Under the pieces are notes generated by a model. That model ran no database searches and was not told the origin of the DNA. It worked only from the letters and a program-made list of their open reading frames with translations. This document shows positions 9,795 to 63,533 of a stretch of 64,000 bases of DNA, piece by piece (position 1 is the stretch's first letter; the number at the start of each line of letters is the position of its first letter). Source of the stretch: a virus (lineage: Duplodnaviria > Heunggongvirae > Uroviricota > Caudoviricetes); IMG/VR virus record IMGVR_UViG_3300042940_001739. One strand, given 5' to 3'. The translations under genes and the position numbers were made by a program.

Positions 9795-10406
9795 ATGAGT
9801 TTAAAAAGTTTACAAGAACGAGCAGGCGTTGCCGCAGATGGAGCATTTGGCCCAGGCACGCTAAAAGCAGCAATGAGTTTGTTAAAGCTAACGCCAGTTA
9901 GAGCAGCACACTTCTTTGCACAAACAGCACACGAAACGGGTGGTTTCAAAGCATTTTCAGAAAATCTTAATTATTCAGCGCAAGGTCTTCAAGGGATCTT
10001 CGGGAAATACTTCCCAGGAACTTTAGAAGAGTCTTATGCTCGTAATCCAGAAAAGATTGCTAACAGAGTTTATGCGGATCGAATGGGTAATGGTAATGAA
10101 GCTTCAGGAGATGGGTGGAAGTATCGTGGTCGTGGTGCATTACAATTGACAGGTAAAGCTAATTATGAAGCATTTGCTAAATATTTAAACAAACCAGAAA
10201 TTGTAACTAATCCAGATTTAGTAGCAACAACTTATGCATTTGAATCAGCAATGTTTTTCTTTGACAAAAACAAATTGTGGGACATTTGCGATAAAGGAGT
10301 TAGCAAAGAAACAATCTTAGCACTTACAAAAAGAATCAACGGCGGCACGCACGGATTAGCTGACCGCGAAGAAAAAACATTCAAATATTTCGGATACGTA
10401 AAATAA
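9795..10406 (+). CDS. GH19-family endolysin (chitinase-like lysozyme)
   Basis: FFAQTAHETGGF is the GH19 catalytic signature. Confidence 0.8.
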   Translation: MSLKSLQERAGVAADGAFGPGTLKAAMSLLKLTPVRAAHFFAQTAHETGGFKAFSENLNYSAQGLQGIFGKYFPGTLEESYARNPEKIANRVYADRMGNGNEASGDGWKYRGRGALQLTGKANYEAFAKYLNKPEIVTNPDLVATTYAFESAMFFFDKNKLWDICDKGVSKETILALTKRINGGTHGLADREEKTFKYFGYVK

Positions 10407-10996
10407 TGGCATATACAAGAGAACAAATAGAAGCCGCTGTTAAAGCTAAAGGATATGTTTGGTTTGAAGGCGCAAAAGACTTCGATGTTAATATCATAGG
10501 AGTAAGAAATTCAAGTACAGCAAACAAAGTAACAAATGTATTTGATGATATAATGACTGTGTCGTACAAAGAAGGTGGAGAGTGGAAATTCGCTCAATGG
10601 CCTTGTACAACTGACCCAGGAACAAAAGGTGTTAAAGAATATCATAATGCTGCAGGTGTAGCTCGTTTAGTAGAAGGACAATATAGAGGTTCTCATACTT
10701 TAGGCTTGCACCAAGGTAAATATGAGGCTCTTAAACAAGCAAAACCAGTAAAAGTTTATCGTGATGCAAATCGTGATATGACTTATGACGAGAGCAAGAT
10801 TGCTGAAGGAGTATTTGGAATTAATATTCACAAAGCAGGGGCAGATTCAACATATGTTGAGAATTGGAGCGAAGGATGTCAAGTATTCAAGAAGTCAGCT
10901 GACTTTGAAGCATTTATGGTATTATGCCGTAAAGCTGCGGCAATCCATGGTAAATCATTTACTTATACATTAATCGAATCAGCGGATATTAAATAA
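10406..10996 (+). CDS. Hypothetical protein in lysis cassette (possible cell-wall hydrolase/peptidase)
   Basis: Position only: between the endolysin and a holin-like membrane protein. No confident motif. Confidence 0.3.
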   Translation: MAYTREQIEAAVKAKGYVWFEGAKDFDVNIIGVRNSSTANKVTNVFDDIMTVSYKEGGEWKFAQWPCTTDPGTKGVKEYHNAAGVARLVEGQYRGSHTLGLHQGKYEALKQAKPVKVYRDANRDMTYDESKIAEGVFGINIHKAGADSTYVENWSEGCQVFKKSADFEAFMVLCRKAAAIHGKSFTYTLIESADIK

Positions 10997-11418
10997 TGAA
11001 AACAATTCCACTAACAATATCACTTTTAGCAACAACGACCATGACATTCATCGGTACATATTTTTATAATCTTACAATGGATTACTCCGATCAGTACTTG
11101 GGGTTGATCGCTGTGGTGTTGTTTGATGGGTTTTTTGGAATTATAGCAGGAACAAAACGAGAGGGCTTTCAAACATGTAAGGCCCTCAAAGTTTTACGTA
11201 CAGCAGTTACATGGGTCATACTTTTAACGGTATTGTTATTAGTCGAAAAAGGTTTTAAAGGTACGTCGTGGTTGAGTGAAACAATATTAGTACCATTCAT
11301 GGTATTTCAGTTATTAAGCGCCTTGAAGAATGCTTCAATGGCTGGTTTTATTAAAACAGAAGTATTAAACCGCATCATGGATGCATTTGACAAACACAAA
11401 GGAGAAAGAACCGAGTGA
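10996..11418 (+). CDS. Multi-pass membrane protein, holin-like
   Basis: Three or four hydrophobic helices in 140 aa, adjacent to lysis genes. Confidence 0.4.
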   Translation: MKTIPLTISLLATTTMTFIGTYFYNLTMDYSDQYLGLIAVVLFDGFFGIIAGTKREGFQTCKALKVLRTAVTWVILLTVLLLVEKGFKGTSWLSETILVPFMVFQLLSALKNASMAGFIKTEVLNRIMDAFDKHKGERTE

Positions 11419-23125: not shown

Positions 23126-23682
23126 TGAGCAATCAGCCGCAATATAAGTATGTATATGGCCGAGGAAGAAGCTCGTTTGATCTTCCAGAGTCTGATATTC
23201 GATACGCAATGTCGAATACTAAATCAAATGCAGAAGCGGCTCGGTTTTTAAAAGTATCATTTACTACTTATAAAAAATATGCTAAGATGTATGTTGATAG
23301 AGATACTGAAAAGACTCTATATGATATGCATACAAATCAGGCAGGGGTTGGTATCACAAAAGATAGTCCTCGAGCAAGTTCAGGTCCATATGCAATTGAT
23401 GCAATATTGGAAGGCAAACATCCTGCGTATCCAACTTGGAAACTTCGCAATCGTTTGTTAGCATTAGGCATAATGCAGGAAGAATGTTGCTCGTGCGGAT
23501 ATCAGGAACGCAGGGTAACTGATGATACAGTACCATTGTTGTTAGACCACATAGATGGTGATGATACCAACCACTGCATTGATAATTTGCAAATGCTTTG
23601 TTTGAATTGTTATTATCAACAAACAGGCAATCCTTTCAAACAAGATAAAGAACAATATTGGAACTATAATTTAATGGAGTGA
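23125..23682 (+). CDS. HNH endonuclease
   Basis: DHIDGDDTNHCIDNLQMLCLNCY is an HNH motif with flanking Cys pairs. Confidence 0.65.
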   Translation: MSNQPQYKYVYGRGRSSFDLPESDIRYAMSNTKSNAEAARFLKVSFTTYKKYAKMYVDRDTEKTLYDMHTNQAGVGITKDSPRASSGPYAIDAILEGKHPAYPTWKLRNRLLALGIMQEECCSCGYQERRVTDDTVPLLLDHIDGDDTNHCIDNLQMLCLNCYYQQTGNPFKQDKEQYWNYNLME

Positions 23683-23693
23683 TATTTATTAAT

Positions 23694-24443
23694 ATGATAT
23701 CATTAAAAACATTGATTATAGAAGGACGTTATGATAGCATCGTAACCGAACTGTCTAGAAAACTTTTAAAGGTTGTAAAAGATAGTTATGCGTCTGTTCA
23801 AGATCCAAAAGGGATGTTTGCAGGACAGAAGACATACTTTGCTAGCAATGAACGTGCTCCTGATATCACTGATGATCAACAATATAAAGAATGTTATTTT
23901 GAAGAAATTAGCAATGACACGATCCCATTGGAGTTCTATGTAACACTTAAAGTTCAATGGCGCCAAGGAATGGGTGATATGATATCAGATGGCGGAGCTT
24001 ATAATGATACATCAAAGTCAGCTGAACAGCCTCCATTAATTGAAGTTATATTTGAATTAGATCCAGATCAGTATCCAAACATATTATCTGAGGTGTCAAT
24101 GCAATTGCGTGACATTCTTCGTCATGAAATTGAACATTTAACTCAATCGGGTTGGAACATCAAGATGAGTAAATGGCATCGTAATGATCAAGCACAACGA
24201 GATAAAATAACATTAGGCAAGATACCACAAGCAAAATACTATACACTACCTAAAGAAATACCAGCAATGATCCAAGGATTGTATATGCGAGCTAAAAAGA
24301 CTCGATTACCATTCAAAGATGTTGTAGATGCTAATTTACAAAAAGGTGTTGAGAATGGTGTAATAACTGCTGAGGAAAAAGAACAAATCAAAGCAGTATG
24401 GAGAAAGTACTTGCCAAGTTTAGGAATAACACAGGAATTATAA
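23694..24443 (+). CDS. Hypothetical protein with capsid-targeting-like N-terminal peptide (MISLKTLIIE) and HExxH motif
   Basis: N-terminus matches the MIxLKxL(L/I)xE family at 57.8-62 kb. HEIEH at ~aa 150. Class III motif gatatttattaat abuts the ATG. The track start (GTG 23679) is probably an artefact. Confidence 0.4.
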   Translation: MISLKTLIIEGRYDSIVTELSRKLLKVVKDSYASVQDPKGMFAGQKTYFASNERAPDITDDQQYKECYFEEISNDTIPLEFYVTLKVQWRQGMGDMISDGGAYNDTSKSAEQPPLIEVIFELDPDQYPNILSEVSMQLRDILRHEIEHLTQSGWNIKMSKWHRNDQAQRDKITLGKIPQAKYYTLPKEIPAMIQGLYMRAKKTRLPFKDVVDANLQKGVENGVITAEEKEQIKAVWRKYLPSLGITQEL

Positions 24444-24874
24444 TGGAATACATTGACGAAGCATGTTGGGATGGATACCAAAAGCGTGGAATGAAAAACA
24501 AAGGCGGCAAACAAGTACCTAATTGTGTAAAAGTTGAAACTGCTGATAACTATTGTTCAAGCTGTTTGATTGAAGCAATCAAATCGTGCGACGAAACCCC
24601 AGAATACATTAACTTGGTTGAACCAGGATTGAATGAAGCTGAATATCAAGGACGCAAAGTTCAATTAGGTAAACCAATGCGAGGCGATGTTAAGAAGTTC
24701 AAAGTATATGTTAAGAATGGCAAAGGCAACGTTATTAAAGTTAACTTTGGCGATCCTAATATGAGAATACGCAAAAGCAATCCTGCACGTAGACGTTCTT
24801 TTAGAGCTAGACATAAATGCGCAACAGCGAAAGATAGAACTTCAGCACGTTATTGGTCTTGCCGCAAATGGTAA
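24443..24874 (+). CDS. Cys-rich hypothetical protein with very basic C-terminus
   Basis: CxxC pairs and an RKSNPARRRSFRARHK tail. Confidence 0.3.
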   Translation: MEYIDEACWDGYQKRGMKNKGGKQVPNCVKVETADNYCSSCLIEAIKSCDETPEYINLVEPGLNEAEYQGRKVQLGKPMRGDVKKFKVYVKNGKGNVIKVNFGDPNMRIRKSNPARRRSFRARHKCATAKDRTSARYWSCRKW

Positions 24875-29264: not shown

Positions 29265-30892
<1,628 letters not shown>

Positions 30893-30893
<1 letters not shown>

Positions 30894-33856: not shown

Positions 33857-34834
33857 ATGAGTAACATAGAACATGATTATCTTAGACTCCTTAAGGATAT
33901 CCTAGACAACGGAGTCAAGAAAGAAGATCGAACAGGTACTGGAACAATCTCAGTATTTGGAAGACAAATTAGACACAAGATGTCTGAAGGTTTCCCTTTA
34001 CTGACTACTAAGAAGATGCCTTTCAATTTAATTGCAACGGAATTGATTTGGTTTTTGATGGGGGACACGAACATCAAGTTCCTTGTTGATAACAATTGTC
34101 ACATTTGGGATGGTGATGCATATAAGAACTATTGTGTATCTTACAAAGACGGTCACGAGTTTTATGAAGATGAAGAAGTAAAACGTTCATACACACAAGA
34201 AGAATTTATCAACAAAATCAAAACAGATGATGAGTTTGCTAAGAAGTGGGGTGATTTAGGTCCTGTGTATGGGAAACAATGGAGAGAATGGAATTGCTAT
34301 AAATGGGATAAGATTGATTTCGATACTCGAATAGAATACACTGACCAAATCGCAAACCTAATCGATGATCTTAAAACAAACCCTGATAGTAGAAGACTAA
34401 TGGTTACTGCCTGGAATCCTGCAGAATTAGACCAAATGACACTTCCTCCTTGTCATTATGGGTTTCAATGCTATGTCAGAGATGGTAAGTACCTCTCTTT
34501 AATGTGGAATCAAAGATCAGTTGATACATTCTTAGGTTTACCATTCAATATAGCATCTTACGGTTTGTTATTAGAAATGATTGCTCGAGAAGTTAATATG
34601 ATCCCTGATGAATTAATTGGAAATTTAGGCGATGTACATTTATATTCAAATCATATTGAACAAGCTCGGGAACAGATTACAAGAGAGCCATTGAGATTAC
34701 CTACATTAAAAATGAGTTCAGGTCACAATTTTAGAGCAGCATTGAAAGCTAACAAAGATGAGATTGATTTGAATGATTTTATTCTGTTAAATTATAATGC
34801 TCACTCACATATTAAAGCACCTTTAAGTAATTGA
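33857..34834 (+). CDS. thyA: Thymidylate synthase (ThyA)
   Basis: EDRTGTGTISVFG, GDLGPVYGKQWR and LPPCHYGFQCYV (catalytic Cys) motifs. Confidence 0.85.
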   Translation: MSNIEHDYLRLLKDILDNGVKKEDRTGTGTISVFGRQIRHKMSEGFPLLTTKKMPFNLIATELIWFLMGDTNIKFLVDNNCHIWDGDAYKNYCVSYKDGHEFYEDEEVKRSYTQEEFINKIKTDDEFAKKWGDLGPVYGKQWREWNCYKWDKIDFDTRIEYTDQIANLIDDLKTNPDSRRLMVTAWNPAELDQMTLPPCHYGFQCYVRDGKYLSLMWNQRSVDTFLGLPFNIASYGLLLEMIAREVNMIPDELIGNLGDVHLYSNHIEQAREQITREPLRLPTLKMSSGHNFRAALKANKDEIDLNDFILLNYNAHSHIKAPLSN

Positions 34835-34845
34835 TATTTATTAAT

Positions 34846-36897
34846 ATGAAACATATACTATTAGCATTAACATTAATGCAATCCATCTTCAGCTACACGC
34901 AGTGTGTAGGAGTACAGTCAGCAACAATTACACCGCCAGCTCCTGCAGGAGGCTATCTACCAAACACTCAAGTAACTGTGTGTTACACGATGGTAGGTTG
35001 GCCTGGATTAAGTGTTGGTGCCAATTGGTTGGAAGGATTTTCTATTACTGCAGGCCCAGGCTGGAATGCACCACAACCAGTTACCGCACCAGCAGATTGT
35101 AATGGGGGAACAACCACAGGATGGTTATGGATGAACTCAGTTACTTCAACAGCAACGGGACAGACTGCAGGGCCAGGATATTTTTATGAAGGACCTACCG
35201 GGCCACAAGACAACAACCCAGGCAATGATTGGGGAGATCAAGGCAATTGTACTTGGACTATGTGTTTCTCAGTTACAACGAAGCAATCATGTTTACCACT
35301 TAACCTCAACCTAGCAGTAACAGCAGGAGCAGATGGAACGTGGGGTTCGTGGTCTAATTCAAGTTGCCCAACAACACCTTACTCAGTATACACAGGAACA
35401 CTCAATGTACCAATCGTAACGGTTGCTAGCACAGTAAAGAAAGACACATGTGGTTTAGGATTAGGATCAATACTAGTAGTACCTAGTTCAACAACATATA
35501 CTGGACCATATACCTATACATGGACTCCTAATGTAGGAAACACAGCATTCATAGGAGGTTTAACGGCAGGAACATACTCAGTTCAAATTGGATATAACAA
35601 CGGATGCATTAAGTCAGCAACATATGTAGTAGGCAATGTTCAACCAACGTATGCAGCAACATCAACCGTTGTATCATGTTATGGAGATGCAACAGGCACA
35701 GCTACCGCAACAATGACACCACCAATTGGAAACATATCTTATAATTGGTCAAACACACAAACAACGCAAACTGCAACGGGACTAGCAGCAGGACCATATA
35801 CATGTACTATTAGCAATACATTGGGATGTACTAGCACAGTACCAGTAACTATAACACAGAACCCTCAACTGCTAATACAGAACTTGTCATTGACTAATGC
35901 AACCTGCGCAGATTCAGATGCTATAATTACATATAACGCAGTAGGAGGCGTCTCTCCTTATCAATATGCACTTAACGGTGTAGGTTCAACAAATAATGAA
36001 GATTCATTAGCAGGAGGCAACTATATTATATATGTACAAGACAATCTAGGATGCAACACTGATAGCACAGTAACATTGTTATCACCAACCGTTATTACTC
36101 CTAGCATTTCTCCTAATGTAACATTGCAATGTACTCCAGGGACATTTATATTTACAAACACATCGACTCCAGCAGTTAACATAGACAGTACTATAGTAAA
36201 TTGGGGTGATGGCAACATAGACACAACCACAACGTACGCACCTATACAGCACGTATACAACACGCCGGGACTTTGGGATATCATTGTATCAACGATTTCT
36301 GATTATGGTTGTGTGTATAGCGATACATTGTATACGTTGGTTGAAACAACTCAGCCGCCAACGGCTCAATTTACTATACAACCTAACCCAACTACTGTAT
36401 ATAATACACACGTGACTTGCGATGATTGGTCGTCAGGAGTGCCTGTGCAATGGTATTGGTCAGCTCCAGGTGCTATACCGATGTCAAGCACACAACTTGA
36501 GCCATGGTTCATGTTCCCAGAAGTAGCCGGCGAACATTACATTACTTTGACAGTAACAGATGCTTATGGTTGTTGGGACACAATAACACACAAGTTCATT
36601 ATAGAAGATGCCATGTTGATATTCGTCCCTAATACATTTACTCCGGGTGGAGCAGATGAATGGAACAATGTATTTCGATGGTCGATACTAGGAATCAATG
36701 AATCAGAATTCTATATGGAAATTTGGAATCGTTGGGGACAAATAATCTGGGAGTCACGAGACCCACACTCATATTGGGATGGAACATGTAATGGGCAACT
36801 AGTACCTGATGGTTCATACAGCTGGGTTATACGAGCAACTAATAAATTAGATGCAGGTAAAAGATCTTTTATAGGAACAATTAACGTTATAAAATAA
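34846..36897 (+). CDS. Secreted repeat-rich protein with T9SS type-B (gliding-motility-associated) C-terminal domain
   Basis: Signal peptide MKHILLALTLMQSIFSYTQ. C-terminus FVPNTFTPGGADEWNNVF...MEIWNRWGQIIWESRD...WDGTCNGQLVPDGSYSWVIRA matches the CHU_C / type-B CTD. Class III motif abuts the ATG. Confidence 0.65.
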   Translation: MKHILLALTLMQSIFSYTQCVGVQSATITPPAPAGGYLPNTQVTVCYTMVGWPGLSVGANWLEGFSITAGPGWNAPQPVTAPADCNGGTTTGWLWMNSVTSTATGQTAGPGYFYEGPTGPQDNNPGNDWGDQGNCTWTMCFSVTTKQSCLPLNLNLAVTAGADGTWGSWSNSSCPTTPYSVYTGTLNVPIVTVASTVKKDTCGLGLGSILVVPSSTTYTGPYTYTWTPNVGNTAFIGGLTAGTYSVQIGYNNGCIKSATYVVGNVQPTYAATSTVVSCYGDATGTATATMTPPIGNISYNWSNTQTTQTATGLAAGPYTCTISNTLGCTSTVPVTITQNPQLLIQNLSLTNATCADSDAIITYNAVGGVSPYQYALNGVGSTNNEDSLAGGNYIIYVQDNLGCNTDSTVTLLSPTVITPSISPNVTLQCTPGTFIFTNTSTPAVNIDSTIVNWGDGNIDTTTTYAPIQHVYNTPGLWDIIVSTISDYGCVYSDTLYTLVETTQPPTAQFTIQPNPTTVYNTHVTCDDWSSGVPVQWYWSAPGAIPMSSTQLEPWFMFPEVAGEHYITLTVTDAYGCWDTITHKFIIEDAMLIFVPNTFTPGGADEWNNVFRWSILGINESEFYMEIWNRWGQIIWESRDPHSYWDGTCNGQLVPDGSYSWVIRATNKLDAGKRSFIGTINVIK

Positions 36898-53542: not shown

Positions 53543-54283
53543 ATGGCAAAAAGAATTCATGTAAGCACCGGAGCTATAGTAGCAACAGCAGAGAGCACAA
53601 CGCAGTATATGCGTGAGATTAAAAAGTTAGCAACCTTGACACGAGAGCAAGAGATTGAGTTAGCAAACCAAATCCAAGCGGGAGACACACGCGCTATGAA
53701 TAAATTGGTTGAGTCTAATTTGCGATTTGCGATCCAGGTAGCTAAGCAATATCAAGGTATGGGATTGCAGTTAGAAGACCTTATTGGGTTCGCTAATGTA
53801 GGATTGTTTGAAGCCGCTGAGCGTTTCGACCCAACTAAAGGCGTCAAGTTTATTACCTTTGCAGTATGGTATATCAGAGCCGAGCTTCAGAAGGCACTCA
53901 ATGATTTGTCCCGTGTTGTAAGGATCCCATCACACCGTACGGCAACTGAGGAGTATTCAACCAAGAGTATTTCAACTCCGGTAGGCGATGATGATAACAA
54001 AGAGACTTATGCGGATCGCTTCTTAGAAGCTGAGGCAACACGATCAGGCAGAGACCGCGCGGACATGACATTTGATATCAATCGAGCATTGAGTCAATTG
54101 AAGCCTAAGCAAGAAGAAGCCATTCGTCGCAATTATGGGATCGGTATGGAGTATGCTCAGAGCATGGAGCAGATTGGTGAAGAGATGGGCATCACAAATG
54201 AGCGCGCTCGTCAATTGGTCCGTCAAGCTGAGATTGCATTAGCAGGCTTACCAGGCATCAAGCTATTGGAACAATACCTGTAA
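53543..54283 (+). CDS. Sigma-70-family RNA polymerase sigma factor (phage-encoded)
   Basis: Region 2 (LRFAIQVAKQYQGMGLQLEDLIGFANVGLFEAAERFDPTKGVKFITFAVWYIRAEL) and region 4 HTH (SMEQIGEEMGITNERARQLVRQAE). Confidence 0.7.
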   Translation: MAKRIHVSTGAIVATAESTTQYMREIKKLATLTREQEIELANQIQAGDTRAMNKLVESNLRFAIQVAKQYQGMGLQLEDLIGFANVGLFEAAERFDPTKGVKFITFAVWYIRAELQKALNDLSRVVRIPSHRTATEEYSTKSISTPVGDDDNKETYADRFLEAEATRSGRDRADMTFDINRALSQLKPKQEEAIRRNYGIGMEYAQSMEQIGEEMGITNERARQLVRQAEIALAGLPGIKLLEQYL

Positions 54284-57506: not shown

Positions 57507-57533
57507 GGGGGGAGTAATAGCCCCCCTTTTTTT
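57507..57533 (+). terminator. Rho-independent terminator GGGGGG-agtaatag-CCCCCC + T7
   Basis: Perfect 6-bp G:C stem plus T7. Confidence 0.65.
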
Positions 57534-57580
57534 GTGGGGTAGCCCCCCTAGTATAGACCCCTTTGACCCCCCATGATTTA

Positions 57581-57609
57581 GGGGGGTGGGGGAGGGTTTC
57601 GTTAAGGGG
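57581..57609 (+). other. G-quadruplex-type motif GGGGGGTGGGGGAGGGTTTCGTTAAGGGG
   Basis: Four G-runs of at least 3, with loops of 1, 1 and 9 nt. Embedded in a region of G and C homopolymer tracts (57507-57625). Confidence 0.4.
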
Positions 57610-57815
57610 TAGAACACCCCCATCTAGATAGTGGTGCTAATATATGTTTTTCTAGCGCGGGAAGATTTTTTGCTGAGGGAGAAGACTCTTTATTGTATAT
57701 GGCGGTGCCATAGAGCTATTATTAATATATAGTACGTTTCGGAGCCTCCCTACGCTAACGCTTCAGTCAGCACCTCACGTAGCCACCAAATTAACGATCT
57801 CCGATATTTATTAAT

Positions 57816-58310
57816 ATGATAAAGATGAAACACATCCTGCAGGAAATTGGAGAAGCTACGTTAGAGCCATATGCATATCGCATCAACTTCACAATAAACC
57901 AAGCACACTTTCGCACAGATGCAGCAACCCAATACGAAGTTGACTTTCGTACGGACGTCCAGGGTGTAATGGAAATACACTTTGCGGTAATAGATGATTC
58001 CGGAAGACCAGATCAATACACAGAAACAAATGAAGGGGTAACTTTGCGTGTTATGTCAACCATCACATCTATCATAAAAAAAGCAGTAGCGCGGTTATCC
58101 CCTCGCGAGATTGTAATATCAGCTGCTAAATCAGATCAACGTCGTATGCGTTTATATCGTCAATATATTGCTAAGCATTTAACGGGCTATGACGAAGTGG
58201 CATCTGATGCGGCTTGGTCTACATATAAAAAGACTCCTAAATTTGATTTAATGGGAATATGGAAGCGAAGCACACAATATGATGCTACGGGAATCAAGGA
58301 TGCACAATGA
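57816..58310 (+). CDS. CTS-family protein 1 (MIKMKHILQE...), hypothetical
   Basis: N-terminal MIxxKxILxE. C-terminal QYDATGIKDAQ shared with the next gene. Class III motif abuts the ATG. Confidence 0.45.
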   Translation: MIKMKHILQEIGEATLEPYAYRINFTINQAHFRTDAATQYEVDFRTDVQGVMEIHFAVIDDSGRPDQYTETNEGVTLRVMSTITSIIKKAVARLSPREIVISAAKSDQRRMRLYRQYIAKHLTGYDEVASDAAWSTYKKTPKFDLMGIWKRSTQYDATGIKDAQ

Positions 58311-58747
58311 TACGATTAGCATCTTTATTAGCGGAATCGGTCAGCATGCTCACAGCAACACAACGCATTGAGTCATTGCCACGTGGCACCATATTTTCAG
58401 ATGCTAAAAATATAACAAGCATTTTTGCGACTAGTAGATATGCATGGAATCAAGTAGCGGCTGCTGTCGACACCAACGCTGCGGATGGTCGAATGCGATC
58501 GGTAAGTATTCAAGACATACACATAACACAACCAAACATTCAAAGCAGCAAAGTCGTACAGATTCTGCGCAGATTACCCGAGTTGCCCGCTATACGCGTC
58601 GCGCAATTTGCAGATGGTTCGTTAGCTATCGCGGATGGCCATCATCGTCTTGTAGCCAATTGGGCATTAGGAAACCAACGCGTCCAAGTAATAATCGTGC
58701 CAGCATCATCACAATATGATTGGACGGGTATAAAGGATAAACCATGA
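58307..58747 (+). CDS. CTS-family protein 2 (MIRLASLLAE...) with ParB/Srx-like nuclease motif
   Basis: LAIADGHHRLVANWA (DGHHR motif of the ParB-like nuclease domain). C-terminal QYDWTGIKDKP. Confidence 0.45.
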   Translation: MIRLASLLAESVSMLTATQRIESLPRGTIFSDAKNITSIFATSRYAWNQVAAAVDTNAADGRMRSVSIQDIHITQPNIQSSKVVQILRRLPELPAIRVAQFADGSLAIADGHHRLVANWALGNQRVQVIIVPASSQYDWTGIKDKP

Positions 58748-59358
58748 TTAGATTAAAGGATTTATTAGCGGAAATCTCTCTGGGGAGCGTGACACCGTAC
58801 GCGACCCAATTTGTATGGCAGGACAATTGGGGCGACGCAGAATCATTCGAAGCAAAGTTTGAGGCCGATTCCCAGCCCATCACCATGACCATGACCAAAT
58901 GGAAACACAGTCAGCACGGAGACACCGGAGAATGGCAATTTGCTTATTTTGTTCGTAGCAAAGACGGTGAAGGTTGGACAACCACTACTCGCCAATCAGC
59001 GGCTCAAGGCGAATTAAACACATTTCGTCTTTTCAAGACAATAGGTGAAGCAATTCGCGATTTTGCCAATACGCAGCCCGGAGTGGATGTGATTGATGTT
59101 AGCGGAAGCGACACATATGACGCCAAGGGCGCACAAAAAACTAGAATATACACGGAATTGTTGCAAAGCAACTCTGACTTAGCAGCATTCAAAGTAGTGC
59201 AAGGGGCAACTCGTTTATTCCTGGTTCGCAAGACAGCAGGAGCGCAGCCTGATGCTACTGGTATTGAAGATGCTGATGATTATTGGACACCCGATGGAAG
59301 TGAGGATGCCACTCAATGGCGTGCTAATCGCGATGGCTCACAAACTGCATCATTTTAA
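58744..59358 (+). CDS. CTS-family protein 3 (MIRLKDLLAE...), hypothetical
   Basis: Shared N-terminus. C-terminal region contains DATGIEDAD. Confidence 0.45.
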   Translation: MIRLKDLLAEISLGSVTPYATQFVWQDNWGDAESFEAKFEADSQPITMTMTKWKHSQHGDTGEWQFAYFVRSKDGEGWTTTTRQSAAQGELNTFRLFKTIGEAIRDFANTQPGVDVIDVSGSDTYDAKGAQKTRIYTELLQSNSDLAAFKVVQGATRLFLVRKTAGAQPDATGIEDADDYWTPDGSEDATQWRANRDGSQTASF

Positions 59359-59370
59359 AACAAGGAAATT

Positions 59371-59901
59371 ATGATACGTTTAAAACGATTGCTTCATGAA
59401 TGGACGGGAGAATCATGGACATCTTGTCGACAATGGGCTTCACAACGCGGCAAGTACTTGGGCAGTGAAGAGGGCGTGTATGTAGGCGTCGAACTAACTA
59501 CTACACAATTTCAACTTACCTATGTAGGACCTGGGGTTGGAATTAGTCTTGCCCATGCAAAGGGTGGCACGGGCGATACATTGCATCAACTTTTCAATGT
59601 ATTGATTTGTGAAATTAATCCATGGTTAGCTGACAACAAGATTCGTCCTAACATTGCTGACATCACAACTAGATGCTCTGCACGCGATGCGGACTTTGAA
59701 TTGGTTATACAAGTACCACTTGAGCCGTCGGATCGCCCATGGCAAATGAATCATCGAGGTGGATGGGGACATGATCCTGGTGTAGGAGCAGTTAAATCTG
59801 CTTCGCCTGATACACCTGATCGTGAAATTGCTACTGAAATCACCATGATACCGAATGGTGGCGGGAAAATCACAACGCACTTTGCTGTATTCCCAATGTA
59901 A
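59371..59901 (+). CDS. CTS-family protein 4 (MIRLKRLLHE...), hypothetical
   Basis: Shared N-terminus. Confidence 0.45.
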   Translation: MIRLKRLLHEWTGESWTSCRQWASQRGKYLGSEEGVYVGVELTTTQFQLTYVGPGVGISLAHAKGGTGDTLHQLFNVLICEINPWLADNKIRPNIADITTRCSARDADFELVIQVPLEPSDRPWQMNHRGGWGHDPGVGAVKSASPDTPDREIATEITMIPNGGGKITTHFAVFPM

Positions 59902-59981
59902 ACGGATGTAGCCCTGAAAGGGGTTACGAACGTACTATGTTTTACAACGTACTATATTTATTTTTAAATTGCAAGGAAACA

Positions 59982-60506
59982 ATGATCAAACTAAAATCAA
60001 TACTTAAAGAAGGTTTTGCGTGGGAACGTGAACCTGGTAAGCCTTTACCTACCTTAGAACAAACAACTGCGGCATACGCTGCCAAAATGGGTGAACAAAG
60101 CGCTGAGCAACCTCTCTCTAATCCAATGGAAACGCCACTAAAAGAATCTGATGATATCTTTGATGAAATTGCTGATGAATTAGGAATCTCTTCAGAAGAA
60201 TTTGATTCAGCTTTAAATAAATCAATGGCTGAGCTAGATATCATTGAAAAAATATATATGAGTGATCATTATACAAAAGCAGAAGCAATGAGTATGATTG
60301 CTGATATGCTTGATGTTGATATCAATGAAGCTGCTGATGGTGTTAAACCTGATTACATTGATGCTGATGGCGATGGTGATGAAGAAGAGTCAATGAAACA
60401 AGCATTTGTTGACAAAGAAGATATGAACGAGTCATTTGCACGTCGTTTAATGGGTAACCTTAAAGGGTCTGAACATATTTTAACGGAAACGTTTAAACGT
60501 AAATAA
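59982..60506 (+). CDS. CTS-family protein 5 (MIKLKSILKE...), acidic
   Basis: Shared N-terminus. The track start of 59937 is probably too early (aaggaaacaATG favoured). Confidence 0.45.
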   Translation: MIKLKSILKEGFAWEREPGKPLPTLEQTTAAYAAKMGEQSAEQPLSNPMETPLKESDDIFDEIADELGISSEEFDSALNKSMAELDIIEKIYMSDHYTKAEAMSMIADMLDVDINEAADGVKPDYIDADGDGDEEESMKQAFVDKEDMNESFARRLMGNLKGSEHILTETFKRK

Positions 60507-60536
60507 AGAGCGTCTGCTACCTTAGACGGTATAGTT

Positions 60537-60569
60537 AAGAGCTTGGGGTTTCGACCTCGAGCTTTTTTT
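60537..60569 (+). terminator. Rho-independent terminator (gagcttggggt-ttcg-acctcgagc + T7)
   Basis: Hairpin plus T7. Confidence 0.5.
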
Positions 60570-60661
60570 GTGTCCCATATTTATTAATATAATAAGTTAT
60601 TTCTTTTAAGTTGGGAGGCCAACAATGTTATTAGTTTAGTTTTAATTTAAAGGAAATAGCT

Positions 60662-60811
60662 ATGGCAGCAAAAAAAGTAAACAGCAATAGTGCAAAGATG
60701 CATATCTCGAAACCGAAGGTTAAAAGACCTGGAGTTCATGCTAAAACTAAAACAAGTAGAAGCAAGAATGCAACTAATTATACTAAGGCATATGTAAGTC
60801 AAGGAAAATGA
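60662..60811 (+). CDS. Small very basic protein (49 aa, Lys/Arg/Ser/Thr-rich)
   Basis: MAAKKVNSNSAKMHISKPKVKRPGVHAKTKTSRSKNATNYTKAYVSQGK. ATGA overlap with the next gene. Below the track cut-off. Confidence 0.35.
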   Translation: MAAKKVNSNSAKMHISKPKVKRPGVHAKTKTSRSKNATNYTKAYVSQGK

Positions 60812-62187
60812 TAAAATTAAGATCTATATTAAACGAAATTATTACTGAGAAAACATCAGATAAGAAACTTCGAGTATTGTTTGTTGGTGATTCACAAACT
60901 GCAGCAGATTGGAGTTATGCTCGTATATTAGTACGATCTAAACAAATTGATGGAACGATTGTTGCTAAAAATGGAGCTTCAACATCTGCTATTTTAACAA
61001 TGCTTCAAAATAGCTTATCTGATAAGTATGATATTGTATCAATAATGGGTGGTGGTAATGATGGCGCTTCAAAATCGCCAGTAAATGCTATTAGAAATTT
61101 TGAAACAATGTTTGATATGGTACGTAACGTTGGAGCAAAATTAGTTGTTATAACTAATCCAACAAAAGATTTTGTTACTCCTGGAGATGCTTATTATAGA
61201 AAAGGCGGATACCCAGCTAACGATAAAATATCAGATTGGCTTCAAACTCAAACGTCTGCAGATGTTATAATTGATACTGGAGATTTCACGGAAATTGATT
61301 TTACAAAAGATCACGTTCATTTAGATTCGGACGCTCACAAAAAAATTGCAAGTCAATGGAAACGTCAAGTATTAGATTTAATTGATGTGGATTCAACCAA
61401 AGAAATTAAACCAGAAGACACTGCATTATTGCAAGTAGGCGATAAAGGTCCTGATGTTTTTAAAATGCAATCTGCTTTAATTAAATTAGGATATTCAGTT
61501 GGCCGCGAAGGTGTTGATGGTATTTTCGGCCCTCATACAAAAAGTGGATTAATTAAATTCCAACATGACATTACACAAGACCCAACCGGGAAATTAGATA
61601 CAATAACAAAAAATATTTTATTTAAAAAAGCTGGAGAAATTGGAACTGACACATCTGCGGGCGAAGAAGACACTGATATGTCATTAGCTTCATTGATTGG
61701 AATAGGATCAATATCAGGTGCAAATTATTCAGATCCAATATTAAAGCAAGCCGCAGCTTTGTTGGCTGGTTTTGAAGGATTCCGTTCTGAAGCTTATTGG
61801 GATGTTAATAATTGGAGAATTGGATACGGAAGTAGCACGGTAACTGATGCATCTGGTAACATTGAACATTTATCTGCAGATAGATCAGAAAAACCTGATA
61901 TAACTGTTACTAAGGAAGATGGAATTCGAGATTTATCACGTAGGCTGTCTGACGAGTTTATTCCGAAAGTATTACAACATGCAGACGGATTAAATAAAGG
62001 TACTGTTTCAGCATTAGTATCAATTGCATATAATTATGGTAGTTTACCTAGCAATGTTATCAGTGCAATGAAAACAAAAAATATAAATGATATTGCACAA
62101 GCAGTATTACAATTAAAATCACATAACGGCGGCATCAATGCAAAACGAAGACAAAAAGAAGCTGCTTACATATTAAATAGTAAATAA
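60808..62187 (+). CDS. CTS-family protein 6: multidomain SGNH/GDSL hydrolase + peptidoglycan-binding domain + GH24 (T4-lysozyme-like) muramidase
   Basis: MIKLRSILNE N-terminus. GDSL block I VLFVGDSQT and block V DHVHLDSDAH. PG_binding_1 repeat (LQVGDKGPDVFKMQSALIKLGYSVGREGVDGIFGPHTKSGLIKFQ). Lysozyme motif GFEGFRSEAYWDVNNWRIGYGS. Confidence 0.55.
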   Translation: MIKLRSILNEIITEKTSDKKLRVLFVGDSQTAADWSYARILVRSKQIDGTIVAKNGASTSAILTMLQNSLSDKYDIVSIMGGGNDGASKSPVNAIRNFETMFDMVRNVGAKLVVITNPTKDFVTPGDAYYRKGGYPANDKISDWLQTQTSADVIIDTGDFTEIDFTKDHVHLDSDAHKKIASQWKRQVLDLIDVDSTKEIKPEDTALLQVGDKGPDVFKMQSALIKLGYSVGREGVDGIFGPHTKSGLIKFQHDITQDPTGKLDTITKNILFKKAGEIGTDTSAGEEDTDMSLASLIGIGSISGANYSDPILKQAAALLAGFEGFRSEAYWDVNNWRIGYGSSTVTDASGNIEHLSADRSEKPDITVTKEDGIRDLSRRLSDEFIPKVLQHADGLNKGTVSALVSIAYNYGSLPSNVISAMKTKNINDIAQAVLQLKSHNGGINAKRRQKEAAYILNSK

Positions 62188-62196
62188 AGGTAGAAA

Positions 62197-62571
62197 ATGT
62201 TTGAAAAATTAATATCAACACTAATGGCATCACGTGATCAAGCACATGTTTTTCATTGGCAAACAACTGGTGCAGGATCTTTTGCTGCACATAAAGCATT
62301 AGGTAAATATTATGATGCAATACCTGATATGATTGATGCATTAGTAGAAGCATATCAAGGTAAATATGGTATCCTTAAAGGATTTGCGCCGGCGGAAAAA
62401 TTTGATGAATATAGTCAAGCTACAGCGCTTAAGTATTTTAAAGGATTAGCCACATTCATTGATCGTGCTTACGATAAACTAGATCCTAAAGACACAAACA
62501 TTATCAACCAATTAGATACATTCAAAGATTTAATATATACAACAATATATAAATTAGAAAATTTACAGTAA
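62197..62571 (+). CDS. Hypothetical protein
   Basis: ORF only. Confidence 0.3.
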   Translation: MFEKLISTLMASRDQAHVFHWQTTGAGSFAAHKALGKYYDAIPDMIDALVEAYQGKYGILKGFAPAEKFDEYSQATALKYFKGLATFIDRAYDKLDPKDTNIINQLDTFKDLIYTTIYKLENLQ

Positions 62572-63115: not shown

Positions 63116-63310
63116 ATGAAAACAGACTTCATACGTATTATATCAATTAGTTCAGATGCGTCTGAGTCTGTACATTATGTGAATCAATCTCATATACAAC
63201 AAATTTATGAGAAAAAAGGTAAAATTGTTATCGAACTTACTAGTTATGATACAATTGAAACTGCAGGCTACACTTTAGATGCATTTATGGAGCGTTTTAT
63301 TAAAGTGTGA
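63116..63310 (+). CDS. Hypothetical small protein
   Basis: ORF only. Confidence 0.25.
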   Translation: MKTDFIRIISISSDASESVHYVNQSHIQQIYEKKGKIVIELTSYDTIETAGYTLDAFMERFIKV

Positions 63311-63347
63311 TATTTATTAATATATTTATAAACAAATAAAGGTTAAT

Positions 63348-63533
63348 ATGACATCACAAGAAATCTATGAAGCAATGGAAGCACATTGGTTAACATTTAA
63401 AGAAAACCATGATCGCTTTCAAGAAAAACAAGTTAAAGCTGCAGGCGTTAGAGCTCGCAAATCAATTAATGAGATGAAAAAATTAGTTAGCAAATATCGT
63501 TCAACTCAATTAGCAGAAGCAAAAGCAGCATAA
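63348..63533 (+). CDS. Hypothetical small protein
   Basis: Class III motif gatatttattaatat 25 nt upstream. Confidence 0.3.
   Translation: MTSQEIYEAMEAHWLTFKENHDRFQEKQVKAAGVRARKSINEMKKLVSKYRSTQLAEAKAA

What the first reader, a model, noticed from the sequence alone, without database searches (positions are those of the whole stretch)
60808..62187. Putatively head-packaged three-domain cell-wall enzyme (SGNH esterase + PG-binding + GH24 lysozyme)
This gene carries the MIKLRSILNE leader, followed by a GDSL/SGNH hydrolase (GDSQT...DHVHLDSDAH), a PG_binding_1 repeat and a T4-lysozyme-like catalytic region (EGFRSEAYWDVNNWRIGYG). The window also has a separate GH19 endolysin for lysis from within. 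A leader-bearing muralytic enzyme with an added esterase (a possible peptidoglycan O-deacetylase or teichoic-acid esterase) therefore looks like an ejected entry enzyme that removes acetylation and cuts murein from outside. The delivery route is unusual: head-internal, not tail-tip as with gp5.
Basis: partly seen in the sequence, partly recalled or inferred. Interest (0 to 1): 0.65.

Follow-up and report, generated by a model that had tools for sequence, protein, structure and literature searches.

The report
Head-targeted cell-wall enzyme in T4-like phage
A T4-like phage of Bacteroidota encodes a three-domain cell-wall-degrading enzyme whose first ten residues match the tag that phage T4 uses to load proteins into its head, so the enzyme is probably carried in the capsid and released at infection, a route not described for this kind of phage.

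Summary
ORF 60808-62187 (+) encodes a 459-aa protein with SGNH esterase, PG_binding_1 and GH24 lysozyme domains, all above Pfam cut-offs and with catalytic residues intact. A separate GH19 gene lies two genes upstream of a holin.

The leader MIKLRSILNE is not chance. Seven window ORFs carry it, against 0 in 200 shuffles. It has the length and key positions of the T4 capsid-targeting sequence (hydrophobic residues at 4, 7 and 8, Glu at 10, i.e. the gp21 cleavage motif L/I-x-E).

The phage has a T4-type replication module. Its closest isolate, Microcystis phage Mel-JY01, has a gp21-family protease and the same leader. In uncultured relatives, 28 of 31 gp21-containing loci have leader ORFs flanking the protease. 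The hydrolase family is depleted in L/I-x-E outside the leader (ratio 0.38).

Head packaging is therefore well supported by comparison but not demonstrated. This phage's own head genes were out of reach, and there are no proteomics data. The esterase substrate is unresolved; peptidoglycan de-O-acetylation is plausible, while teichoic acid is unlikely because the host is Gram-negative. T7 gp16 is a precedent for a head-internal muralytic enzyme.

Verdict: a new variant of known kinds.

The parts
60808..62187 (+). Gene for the 459-aa precursor: leader + SGNH esterase + PG_binding_1 + GH24 muramidase
60808..60849 (+). N-terminal leader MIKLRSILNE-IITE. The two predicted cleavage motifs, ILNE(10) and IITE(14), are the only [LI]-x-E motifs in the whole protein
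   Evidence: T4 CTS and gp21 specificity from PMC9026906
60859..61383 (+). SGNH/GDSL esterase domain (aa 18-192) with Ser29, Gly56, Asn84, Asp168 and His171 intact
61420..61635 (+). PG_binding_1 domain (aa 205-276), similar to the PG-binding domain of phiKZ gp144
61681..62184 (+). GH24 lysozyme domain (aa 292-459); catalytic Glu323 and Asp332 are invariant across the family
60662..60811 (+). 49-aa very basic ORF (pI 11) whose stop overlaps the hydrolase start (ATGA); conserved immediately upstream of the hydrolase gene in four related loci; function unknown
60577..60590 (+). Promoter-like motif ATATTTATTAATAT just after terminator 60537-60566; heads the transcription unit of the basic ORF and the hydrolase
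57816..60506 (+). Tandem cluster of five further leader-bearing genes with unrelated cargos (57816-58310, 58307-58747, 58744-59358, 59371-59901, 59982-60506), bounded by terminators at 57507-57526 and 60537-60566 and preceded by the same motif at 57804-57817
23694..24443 (+). Seventh leader-bearing ORF (MISLKTLIIE, 249 aa), directly preceded by the same ATATTTATTAATAT motif
62197..62571 (+). DUF5856 gene immediately downstream of the hydrolase. In six related loci its homologue lies next to a leader ORF and close to gp21 and/or gp23; where both are held, it lies between them
9795..11418 (+). Separate lysis cassette: leaderless GH19 (9795-10406), unknown ORF (10406-10996) and holin (10996-11418)

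Best explanation
The gene encodes a pro-enzyme whose first 10 (or 14) residues act as a T4-type capsid-targeting propeptide.

Inferred mechanism:
1. During head assembly the leader docks the protein onto the prohead core.
2. A gp21-family prohead protease cuts after Glu10 (ILNE) and/or Glu14 (IITE).
3. The roughly 48-kDa mature enzyme stays inside the DNA-filled head.
4. At infection it leaves through the tail with or ahead of the DNA.
5. In the periplasm of the Bacteroidota host, the PG_binding_1 domain anchors it to murein and the GH24 domain cuts glycan strands.
6. The SGNH esterase most likely removes O-acetyl groups, which would otherwise block a muramidase.

Shown here: the domain architecture and intact catalytic residues; the shared portable leader; the T4-type replication genes just upstream of the window; the leader's association with gp21 in relatives; and the avoidance of the cleavage motif in the hydrolase family.

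Inferred: packaging, cleavage, ejection, periplasmic site of action and esterase substrate.
For: 1. The leader copies the logic of the T4 CTS. T4 IPII/IPIII carry the 10-residue propeptide MKTYQEFIAE. In T4, residues 4 and 7 govern targeting and residues 8 and 10 govern processing, and gp21 cuts after Glu in L/I-X-E (PMC9026906). Across 75 distinct leaders here, M1, I2 and [LI]7 are invariant, L4 is in 72 and L8 in 74, and Glu10 is in 72%. Every leader has its first hydrophobic-x-Glu motif at position 9, 10, 14 or 15. The T4 gp24 propeptide MAKINELLRE matches the clade consensus at 6 of 10 positions.

2. The tag is portable. Seven window ORFs with unrelated cargos carry it, against 0 in 200 shuffles. 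Only 39 of 77 identical residues use the same codon, so selection acts on the peptide. In IMG/VR, 194 leader ORFs fall into 99 cargo families.

3. The phage is T4-like. A gp44-like clamp loader followed by a gp62-family gene lies just upstream of the window. The clamp loader matches 2,810 phage records, the listed ones T4-type; the closest isolate is Mel-JY01, which is syntenic with the window.

4. Mel-JY01 has Peptidase_S77 (gp21; 104.6 bits), Gp23 and Portal_T4. It carries the same leader on 4-5 genes, one immediately after the capsid gene.

5. An IMG/VR scan using only the back-translated leader returned 120 stretches. Of these, 48 hold T4-type head genes, and 28 of the 31 with gp21 have same-strand leader ORFs flanking the protease. 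Most leader ORFs are basic, like the T4 internal proteins.

6. The hydrolase has [LI]-x-E only at E10 and E14. Twenty diverse family members have 26 motifs beyond residue 15 against 67.8 expected (0 of 400 shuffles reach this). Seven control motifs give ratios of 0.96-1.42, and non-leader window ORFs give 1.12.

7. It is not the lysis enzyme. A leaderless GH19 lies two genes upstream of a holin elsewhere in the window.

8. The lytic domains are of the virion-associated type. The nearest GH24 relatives in isolates lie inside tape-measure proteins. Family variants swap in Phage_lysozyme2, M23 or VanY behind the same leader.

9. The esterase appears linked to the glycosidase. The SGNH catalytic residues are intact in 40 of 45 aligned members whose only recorded lytic partner is a glycosidase, and decayed in all 9 with a recorded M23 or VanY domain. 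O-acetylation of MurNAc blocks lysozymes (PMC6174289).
Against: - No gp21, gp23 or portal gene of this particular phage was seen. The window plus about 10 kb on each side holds none, and an attempt to link a protease through contig length failed.
- There are no proteomics data or N-terminal sequences for any member.
- Leader-bearing cargos other than the hydrolase family are not depleted in [LI]-x-E (ratio 0.99).
- The GH24 domain of 7 leaderless relatives is also motif-poor (2 against 6.3), so part of the depletion may be intrinsic to that domain.
- The mature enzyme has pI about 6, unlike the basic T4 internal proteins.
- T4 internal proteins are reported to enter the cytoplasm, where a murein hydrolase would have no substrate. 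Release in the periplasm is an assumption.
- Mel-JY01 has an annotated tail lysozyme and a second 'putative chitinase' gene next to it, so a head-borne enzyme may be redundant.
- Whether the host O-acetylates its murein is unknown.
Confidence: 0.55

Rival explanations
1. It is an accessory or alternative endolysin that acts from within at the end of infection. The leader would then be unrelated to packaging, for example a pro-peptide that keeps the enzyme inactive or tethered until late.
For: Multi-domain lysins with PG_binding_1 plus a catalytic domain are typical endolysins of phages of Gram-negative hosts. PHROGs labels the matching families 'endolysin', and the PG-binding domain resembles that of the phiKZ endolysin gp144. 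The protein has no signal peptide, as expected of a holin-dependent endolysin (sequence).
Against: A leaderless GH19 lying two genes upstream of a holin already supplies the lysis function. This gene sits among leader-bearing genes of unrelated function, not beside a holin or spanin. This reading does not explain why the same 10-residue tag sits on about 100 unrelated cargo families and flanks gp21, nor the motif-specific avoidance of L/I-x-E.
Confidence: 0.15
2. It is a virion-associated lysin mounted on the tail or baseplate, like T4 gp5 or tape-measure lysozymes. The leader would serve another purpose, such as assembly chaperoning.
For: The nearest GH24 domains in isolated phages are embedded in tape-measure proteins. 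Family variants carry PF18013 'phage tail lysozyme'.
Against: Pfam finds no gp5 OB-fold or beta-helix, tape-measure or baseplate domain. The gene is not in a tail module. The leader co-localises with portal, gp21 and gp23 rather than with tail genes: sheath hits occur in only 6 of 120 loci against 31 for gp21. Leaderless tape-measure relatives lack the N-terminal tag altogether.
Confidence: 0.1
3. The protein is targeted to the prohead core but is not an entry enzyme. It could be degraded or expelled like scaffold, or it could act during assembly, for instance by remodelling murein near membrane-bound proheads.
For: The leader also marks genes at the positions of T4 core and scaffold genes, and T4 core proteins are largely degraded (PMC9026906).
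Against: The mature part contains no further L/I-x-E site, and the family is selectively depleted of that motif. That is the opposite of what is expected for a protein meant to be fragmented. The catalytic residues of the GH24 domain are invariant. A cytoplasmic prohead has no access to murein.
Confidence: 0.07
4. The shared N-terminus is not a protein-targeting signal. It could be an RNA-level translation or regulatory element, a recombination footprint, a host secretion signal, or a recognition tag for the phage GroEL.
For: The leader begins at the start codon. Three leader or neighbouring genes are directly abutted by the AT-rich motif ATATTTATTAATAT. The phage encodes a GroEL.
Against: Half of the identical residues use different codons. 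The peptide is conserved between phages of Cyanobacteria and of Bacteroidota, which argues against a host-specific secretion signal. It is too short and too polar for a Sec, Tat or lipoprotein signal (sequence). The conserved positions match the experimentally mapped T4 CTS positions, and the tag ends in the gp21 motif.
Confidence: 0.05
5. The delivery route is as in the best explanation, but the SGNH domain is not a peptidoglycan O-acetylesterase. It could be a lipase or lysophospholipase acting on membrane lipids, or it could deacetylate another envelope glycan.
Against: The domain is fused through a murein-binding module to a muramidase. Its catalytic residues are kept when a glycosidase is the only lytic partner and lost when a peptidase is present. 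O-acetylation is the known murein modification that blocks lysozymes.
Confidence: 0.3

Closest known systems
T4 internal proteins IPI/IPII/IPIII and Alt (CTS-targeted, gp21-processed head cargo)
   Same: An N-terminal propeptide of about 10 residues ending in L/I-x-E, with hydrophobic residues at positions 4, 7 and 8 and Glu at 10. Many unrelated cargos share the tag. The genes are clustered in tandem outside the main structural operon. The phage has T4-type replication genes.
   Different: The leader sequence differs (MI[KR]LKxLLxE against MKTYQEFIAE). The cargo is a 48-kDa three-domain murein hydrolase, not a small basic anti-restriction protein or an ADP-ribosyltransferase. There is no sequence homology to any T4 internal protein. 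Packaging and cleavage have not been shown.
T7 gp16 (internal core protein with a lytic transglycosylase motif)
   Same: A head-internal protein that is ejected at infection and degrades peptidoglycan (PMC6116005).
   Different: T7 is a podovirus. gp16 is a large core and ejectosome protein whose muralytic motif is a lytic transglycosylase motif. It has no short cleaved CTS, no esterase and no PG_binding_1. Here the catalytic domain is GH24, in a T4-like contractile-tail phage.
T4 gp5 tail-tip lysozyme and tape-measure-embedded lysozymes (for example Ruegeria phage DSS3-P1, Rhizobium phage 16-3)
   Same: A GH24-type muramidase domain used by virions to breach murein locally. The GH24 domain here is 41-45% identical to the tape-measure-embedded ones.
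   Different: Those enzymes are built into tail structures. This protein has no tail, OB-fold, beta-helix or tape-measure domains, and it carries the head-type leader.
Ape1 / PatB / OatA (SGNH enzymes acting on the O-acetyl group of MurNAc)
   Different: There is no CBM35-like insertion. Many unrelated esterases give closer structural matches. The activity is untested, and the host's murein chemistry is unknown.
Modular endolysins of phages of Gram-negative hosts with PG_binding_1 (phiKZ gp144)
   Same: A PG_binding_1 domain with recognisable sequence similarity (E about 5e-5), fused to a glycan-cleaving domain.
   Different: gp144 has an N-terminal binding domain plus a transglycosylase, with no leader and no esterase. 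Here lysis is covered by a separate GH19 gene lying two genes upstream of a holin.
P1 DarB N-terminal capsid-targeting signal
   Same: An N-terminal signal sufficient to load a large enzyme into a myovirus head (PMC9024508).
   Different: The P1 signal is about 30 residues and unrelated in sequence. Its cargo is an anti-restriction methyltransferase/helicase.

Membership tests
GH24 phage lysozyme (PF00959) | Profile match above the curated threshold | tested here: met
   40.3 bits against a 22.3 cut-off, residues 321-450
GH24 phage lysozyme (PF00959) | Catalytic Glu and Asp at T4-lysozyme E11/D20 spacing | tested here: met
   Glu323 and Asp332 (spacing +9) are invariant in all GH24-bearing members
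GH24 phage lysozyme (PF00959) | Thr26-equivalent third residue of T4 lysozyme | tested here: not met
   The position is an invariant Arg337, also found in the leaderless tape-measure-type relatives. This is a feature of the subfamily, not a loss.
GH24 phage lysozyme (PF00959) | Lysozyme fold | tested here: met
SGNH/GDSL hydrolase | Conserved blocks I, II, III and V (Ser, Gly, Asn, Asp-x-x-His) | tested here: met
   GDS29QT, NG56AST, GGN84DG, D168HVH171; PF13472 at 42.2 bits against 32.9
SGNH/GDSL hydrolase | Flavodoxin-like SGNH fold | tested here: met
Ape-type O-acetylpeptidoglycan esterase | SGNH catalytic domain interrupted by a CBM35-like beta-sandwich | tested here: not met
   The domain is a contiguous 175 residues with no insertion. 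The Ape architecture is described in PMC6174289.
Ape-type O-acetylpeptidoglycan esterase | Closest structural or sequence relatives are Ape enzymes | tested here: inconclusive
Ape-type O-acetylpeptidoglycan esterase | Releases acetate from O-acetylated murein | not testable with these tools
   Needs enzymology
PG_binding_1 | Profile match above threshold and similarity to a solved PG-binding domain | tested here: met
   40.4 bits against 23; phiKZ gp144 3bkh, E 4.5e-5
T4-type CTS-targeted internal head protein | N-terminal propeptide of 10-19 residues ending in the gp21 motif L/I-x-E | tested here: met
   ILNE-10 and IITE-14. All 75 distinct leaders have their first such motif at position 9, 10, 14 or 15 (PMC9026906).
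T4-type CTS-targeted internal head protein | Conserved hydrophobic residues at the mapped targeting positions (4, 7) and processing positions (8, 10) | tested here: met
   L4 in 72 of 75, [LI]7 in 75 of 75, L8 in 74 of 75, E10 in 54 of 75
T4-type CTS-targeted internal head protein | The same tag is shared by several unrelated cargos of one phage | tested here: met
   Seven window ORFs; cargos are unrelated
T4-type CTS-targeted internal head protein | The genome encodes a gp21-family (Peptidase_S77) prohead protease | not tested
   The head module lies outside the window and the reachable flanks. The feature is met in the closest isolate, Mel-JY01 (104.6 bits), and in 31 leader-bearing IMG/VR loci.
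T4-type CTS-targeted internal head protein | Protein present in the mature head with the propeptide removed | not testable with these tools
   Needs virion proteomics or N-terminal sequencing
T4-type CTS-targeted internal head protein | Sequence homology of the cargo to the T4 internal proteins or Alt | tested here: not met
   The best matches in the phage collection and all Pfam hits are SGNH, PG-binding or lysozyme domains; no internal protein or Alt appears
Canonical endolysin of a lysis cassette | Adjacent to holin or spanin genes | tested here: not met
   The neighbours are leader-bearing genes, a 49-aa basic ORF and DUF5856. The window's holin lies about 50 kb away, two genes downstream of the GH19 gene.
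T4 gp5-type tail lysozyme | OB-fold N-domain and C-terminal beta-helix flanking the lysozyme | tested here: not met
   Pfam finds no such domains, and the model shows only the SGNH, PG-binding and GH24 domains
T7 gp16-type internal core protein | Lytic transglycosylase-type muralytic domain in a large ejectosome protein | tested here: not met
   Pfam finds no transglycosylase domain; the protein is 459 aa with a GH24 domain

The most novel reading that the evidence does not exclude
A large environmental clade of T4-like phages, from freshwater and marine samples and with hosts ranging from Cyanobacteria to Bacteroidota, uses one conserved 10-residue capsid-targeting and cleavage tag (MI[KR]LKxLLxE). 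The tag loads on the order of a hundred unrelated cargo families into the head for ejection. One recurrent cargo slot is a domain-shuffled murein hydrolase: SGNH+GH24, SGNH+Lysozyme2, M23+GH24, VanY+GH24 or M23+Lysozyme2. This would mean that some contractile-tail phages deliver a cell-wall-degrading enzyme, here with a de-O-acetylase that unmasks its substrate, from inside the capsid and not from the tail tip. It would also mean that the tag can be used to read the repertoire of ejected proteins directly from metagenomic sequence.
Probability: 0.45. Interest if true: 0.78.

Novelty: new variant of a known kind. Interest (0 to 1): 0.64.

Why it matters
If the tag works as it does in T4, three things follow.

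1. T4-like myoviruses would not rely only on tail-tip lysozyme. Some would carry a murein hydrolase inside the head, which changes the picture of how the cell wall is breached at entry.

2. An esterase fused to a muramidase suggests a phage counter-measure to O-acetylated murein, a modification best known for blocking host lysozyme.

3. The leader is a simple sequence handle. In one capped scan it retrieved more than 120 viral stretches and about 100 cargo families, including a Zeta-toxin-like kinase fused to a nucleotidase. That would allow candidate ejected effectors to be listed in uncultured phages. It also offers a second, naturally diverse targeting tag for loading foreign proteins into phage heads.

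A cultured relative with the same leader, Microcystis phage Mel-JY01, makes the leader's packaging and cleavage role directly testable.

Tried and rejected
1. Linking a gp21 protease to this genome. I searched 5.8 billion proteins with a Peptidase_S77 profile, looking for a hit whose longest contig is 164,031 bp (the same as the hydrolase's). The list was saturated by Mel-JY01-like sequences and showed no such hit.

2. Walking to the head module. Flanks of 10 kb from both window ends hold only replication, repair and small genes. An exact-match scan of metagenome contigs with a probe from the far end found nothing. A protein-level scan fetched 80 relatives of the UvdE-like gene, but none has head genes within 10 kb.

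3. An exact 42-mer from the gene has no match in IMG/VR, and megablast of 24 kb against isolated phages found nothing.

4. Cargo families 58744 and 59982 have no homologues in isolated phages. Pfam (three proteins) and PHROGs (ten proteins) give no annotation for leader ORFs next to gp21, so calling them core or internal proteins rests on position and charge only.

5. The idea that the window GH19 (MSLKSLQE...) also carries a degenerate leader was rejected. Its homologues start MNLDKLKGH, MDINKLRGH or MLLKRGDNN.

6. T4 late-promoter TATAAATA is not enriched in the window (10 matches against 10.6 expected) and none lies upstream of the leader cluster or the hydrolase. Sigma-70-type promoter scans were no better than shuffles.

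7. The leader ORFs beside gp21 are not acidic scaffold-like proteins. Their median pI is 8.9, which is more like the T4 internal proteins.

8. A suspected YkuD-like signature in ORF 10406-10996 was not supported by Pfam.

9. No paper on Mel-JY01, and none linking a capsid-targeting sequence to a peptidoglycan hydrolase, was found in the searchable library.
Full report
**The observation**

ORF 60808-62187 on the + strand is real. It has an ATG start and encodes 459 aa. An in-frame stop lies seven codons upstream, and an AAGGA-like site precedes the start codon.

Pfam finds three domains, all above the curated cut-offs:
- Lipase_GDSL_2, residues 25-177, 42.2 bits
- PG_binding_1, residues 214-271, 40.4 bits
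- Phage_lysozyme (GH24), residues 321-450, 40.3 bits

The SGNH blocks are intact: GDS29QT, NG56AST, GGN84DG and D168HVH171. The GH24 domain has Glu323 and Asp332 at the spacing of T4 lysozyme E11/D20. Both are invariant in 16 orthologues and in every GH24-bearing relative examined.

An AlphaFold2 model (mean pLDDT 82.7) shows three confident globular domains joined by low-confidence linkers at 193-204 and 277-291. Residues 1-17 lie outside the esterase fold.

Fold searches match the domains as follows:
- The C-terminal domain matches GH24 muramidases (AbLys1, RrrD, P22 lysozyme).
- The middle domain matches the murein-binding domain of phiKZ gp144.

It lies two genes upstream of a holin at 10996-11418 (28.1 against 22.2). 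So the window already has a plausible lysis cassette.

**The leader is a real, shared feature**

Seven ORFs in the window begin with M-I-x-[LM]-x-x-[LI]-[LI]-x-E. Six run in tandem from 57816 to 62187, and the seventh is at 23694. None was found in 200 shuffles.

Their cargos are unrelated. Only 39 of 77 identical leader residues use the same codon, so the peptide is under selection and not the DNA.

The hydrolase has 96 database relatives. Nearly all non-fragmentary ones keep the leader while the domains behind it change. The architectures seen are SGNH+PGB+GH24, SGNH+PGB+Phage_lysozyme2, M23+GH24 and VanY+GH24. The leader is missing only from distant GH24 relatives of the tape-measure type.

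In related viral contigs the hydrolase again sits in clusters of three to six leader genes. One of them, L107, reproduces the window's gene order but has an M23+Phage_lysozyme2 enzyme in the hydrolase slot.

**Comparison with the T4 capsid-targeting sequence**

T4 IPII and IPIII are annotated with a 10-residue propeptide, MKTYQEFIAE.

According to the T4 literature (PMC9026906; PMC5694885):
- The first 10 residues of IPIII suffice for head incorporation.
- Residues 4 and 7 govern targeting, and residues 8 and 10 govern processing.
- The prohead protease gp21 cuts after Glu in L/I-X-E.
- Alt is cut at ITE-6.

Across 75 distinct leaders collected here, the pattern is as follows:
- M1, I2 and [LI]7 are invariant.
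- L4 is present in 72 and L8 in 74.
- Glu10 is present in 54.
- Every leader has its first hydrophobic-x-Glu motif at position 9, 10, 14 or 15.

The window protein has ILNE-10 and IITE-14.

Read directly from the T4 genome, other gp21 substrates follow the same logic: gp24 MAKINELLRE, gp22 MLKEQLIAE and gp21 MNEPQLLIE. The gp24 propeptide shares 6 of 10 residues with the clade consensus MIKLKELLKE.

**Is this phage T4-like, and does the tag go with the head?**

The window itself holds replication and nucleotide-metabolism genes, GroEL and a sigma-70-like factor.

Just upstream lies a gp44-like clamp loader followed by a gp62-family gene. The clamp loader matches 2,810 phage records, the listed ones T4-type. 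The closest isolate is Microcystis phage Mel-JY01 at 42%.

Mel-JY01 is syntenic with the window. Both run clamp loader, clamp-loader A subunit, PD-(D/E)XK nuclease, glycosyl- and methyltransferase block, then GH19. It encodes Peptidase_S77 (gp21 family, 104.6 bits), Gp23 and Portal_T4.

Mel-JY01 also carries the same leader on four or five genes: MIKLKSLLQE, MIKLKSLLKE, MIKLMSLVTE, and MISLKSLIKH on the gene right after the capsid gene. Conservation of the tag between phages of Cyanobacteria and of Bacteroidota points to a phage-internal partner and away from a host secretion system.

The results:
- 50 stretches hold two or more leader ORFs.
- 48 hold T4-type terminase, portal, gp21 or gp23 genes.
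- 28 of the 31 with gp21 have same-strand leader ORFs flanking the protease. These lie mostly between gp21 and gp23, and some between portal and gp21, where T4 has gp22 and gp67/gp68.
- Most of these ORFs are basic (median pI about 9), like the T4 internal proteins.
- With the leader removed, 194 ORFs fall into 99 families.

DUF5856, the gene immediately after the hydrolase, sits beside a leader ORF and close to gp21 and/or gp23 in six loci.

**Motif avoidance**

The only [LI]-x-E motifs in the 459-residue protein are the two in the leader.

In 20 diverse family members, residues 16 to the end contain 26 such motifs against 67.8 expected from shuffles. That is a ratio of 0.38; 0 of 400 shuffles reach it, and 19 of 20 proteins fall below expectation.

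Seven control motifs ([LI]xD, [LI]xQ, [LI]xK, Ex[LI], [LI]E, [LI]xxE, [AGS]xE) give ratios of 0.96-1.42, and [VM]xE gives 0.63. Non-leader window ORFs give 1.12. This is what is expected of an enzyme that must survive exposure to an L/I-x-E protease.

Caveats:
- The sequences are related to one another.
- Other leader-bearing cargos are not depleted (0.99).
- The GH24 domain of seven leaderless relatives is also motif-poor.

**The esterase**

The host is probably a member of the Bacteroidota, because several phage proteins carry T9SS sorting domains (CHU_C, Por_Secre_tail, SprB). Teichoic acid is therefore an unlikely substrate.

O-acetylation of MurNAc C-6 blocks lysozymes, and the enzymes that add or remove it (PatB, OatA, Ape) are SGNH proteins (PMC6174289).

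One indirect clue supports a role in helping the muramidase. The SGNH catalytic residues are intact in 40 of 45 aligned family members whose only recorded lytic partner is a glycosidase. They have decayed in all nine members with a recorded M23 or VanY peptidase. Shared ancestry may inflate this pattern.

**What is not shown**

I could not reach this phage's own head genes. There are no proteomics data for any member.

The site of action is also an assumption. T4 internal proteins are reported to enter the cytoplasm, whereas a murein hydrolase must be released in the periplasm.

Mel-JY01 has an annotated tail lysozyme with a 'putative chitinase' gene next to it, so a head-borne enzyme could be an addition and not a replacement.

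**Verdict**

The sequence observation is confirmed. The head-packaging reading is the best-supported explanation, at about 0.55 for the whole chain and higher for the step 'the leader is a gp21-type targeting and cleavage propeptide'.

The known parts are CTS-targeted head cargo (T4), head-internal muralytic proteins (T7 gp16; PMC6116005) and modular phage lysins. The combination is new: a T4-type tag on a three-domain esterase-muramidase, within a very widespread tag system. I rate it a new variant of a known kind, with moderately high interest, and it is directly testable in the cultured relative Mel-JY01.

Noticed in passing
window 23682-23695, 34834-34847, 57804-57817, 60577-60590, 63310-63323 (+): The exact 14-mer ATATTTATTAATAT occurs five times on the + strand. 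Allowing 2 mismatches gives 13 matches on both strands against 5.9 expected. In three cases its last AT begins the start codon. It precedes two leader genes, a T9SS-type adhesin-like gene, the basic ORF plus hydrolase, and an Hc1 histone-like gene. It is probably a phage promoter or a leaderless-mRNA start element for one temporal class.
   Followed up: partly
window 60662-60811 (+); also L011, L012, L014, L015 just upstream of the hydrolase homologue: A 47-49-aa, very basic ORF (pI 11; core KPKVKRPGVHAK) is conserved immediately upstream of the hydrolase gene in four related loci. In the window its stop overlaps the hydrolase start (ATGA). It has no Pfam match. It could be a partner, an inhibitor or a DNA-associated peptide.
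   Followed up: partly
window 58287-58310, 58724-58747, 59257-59280; L011 (58744-like gene): Three leader proteins, and one relative, share a motif D-[AWT]-TGI-[KE]-D at or near the C-terminus. It is absent from 198 leader ORFs in IMG/VR. Unexplained; it might be a second, C-terminal processing or docking motif, or a mark of paralogy.
   Followed up: partly
window 11415-13337, 15967-17715, 34846-36897 (+): The phage encodes large surface-protein-like ORFs carrying Bacteroidota T9SS sorting domains (Por_Secre_tail with cohesin; Ig_7 with C-type lectin; CHU_C with SprB and PKD). This suggests the phage has the host's type IX secretion system export its proteins, and it identifies the host phylum.
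   Followed up: no
window 57507-57640 (+): An unusually G/C-rich stretch with runs of G6, C6-7 and G5-7 that form hairpins (GGGGGG...CCCCCC) sits in an otherwise 36% GC genome, between a terminator and the leader-gene cluster.
   Followed up: no
hydrolase family (P0013-17, P0019, P0025/26, P0055-P0082): The SGNH-like N-domain is retained but has lost its catalytic Ser, Asn or His in several lineages. This includes every member that acquired an M23 or VanY peptidase domain. The domain may therefore also have a structural role.
   Followed up: yes
L049 1846-3063 (+) (IMG/VR): A leader-tagged 406-aa protein combines a Zeta-toxin/AAA_33-like kinase domain with an NT5C 5'-nucleotidase domain. It is a candidate ejected effector of a different kind.
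   Followed up: no
Mel-JY01 PP395634.1: 22183-22410; 111.5-123 kb: The closest isolate has a ribosomal protein S21 gene inside its head module (between gp21 and gp23). It also has a long array of about 20 tandem genes of 140-280 aa, one subset of which shares a different N-terminus (MNTEEIDFKFN).
   Followed up: no
window 62197-62571 (DUF5856) and 24398-24874; loci L074-L141: Two window genes adjacent to leader genes have homologues inside head modules of relatives. DUF5856 lies next to a leader ORF between gp21 and gp23. The 24398 family lies between terminase and portal, and in L040 and L140 it is itself leader-tagged.
   Followed up: partly
L076, L105, L139, L141 (IMG/VR): In several relatives a 292-aa PG_binding-like + GH19 homologue of the window's GH19 sits immediately upstream of gp21, inside the head module. 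It has no leader.
   Followed up: partly
window 29268-30893, 53543-54283, 63348-63533: The phage encodes a full-length GroEL (PHROG E 1e-177), a sigma-70-like factor with regions 1.2, 2 and 4, and a small Hc1 histone-like protein. This is an unusual combination for a phage with T4-type replication genes.
   Followed up: no
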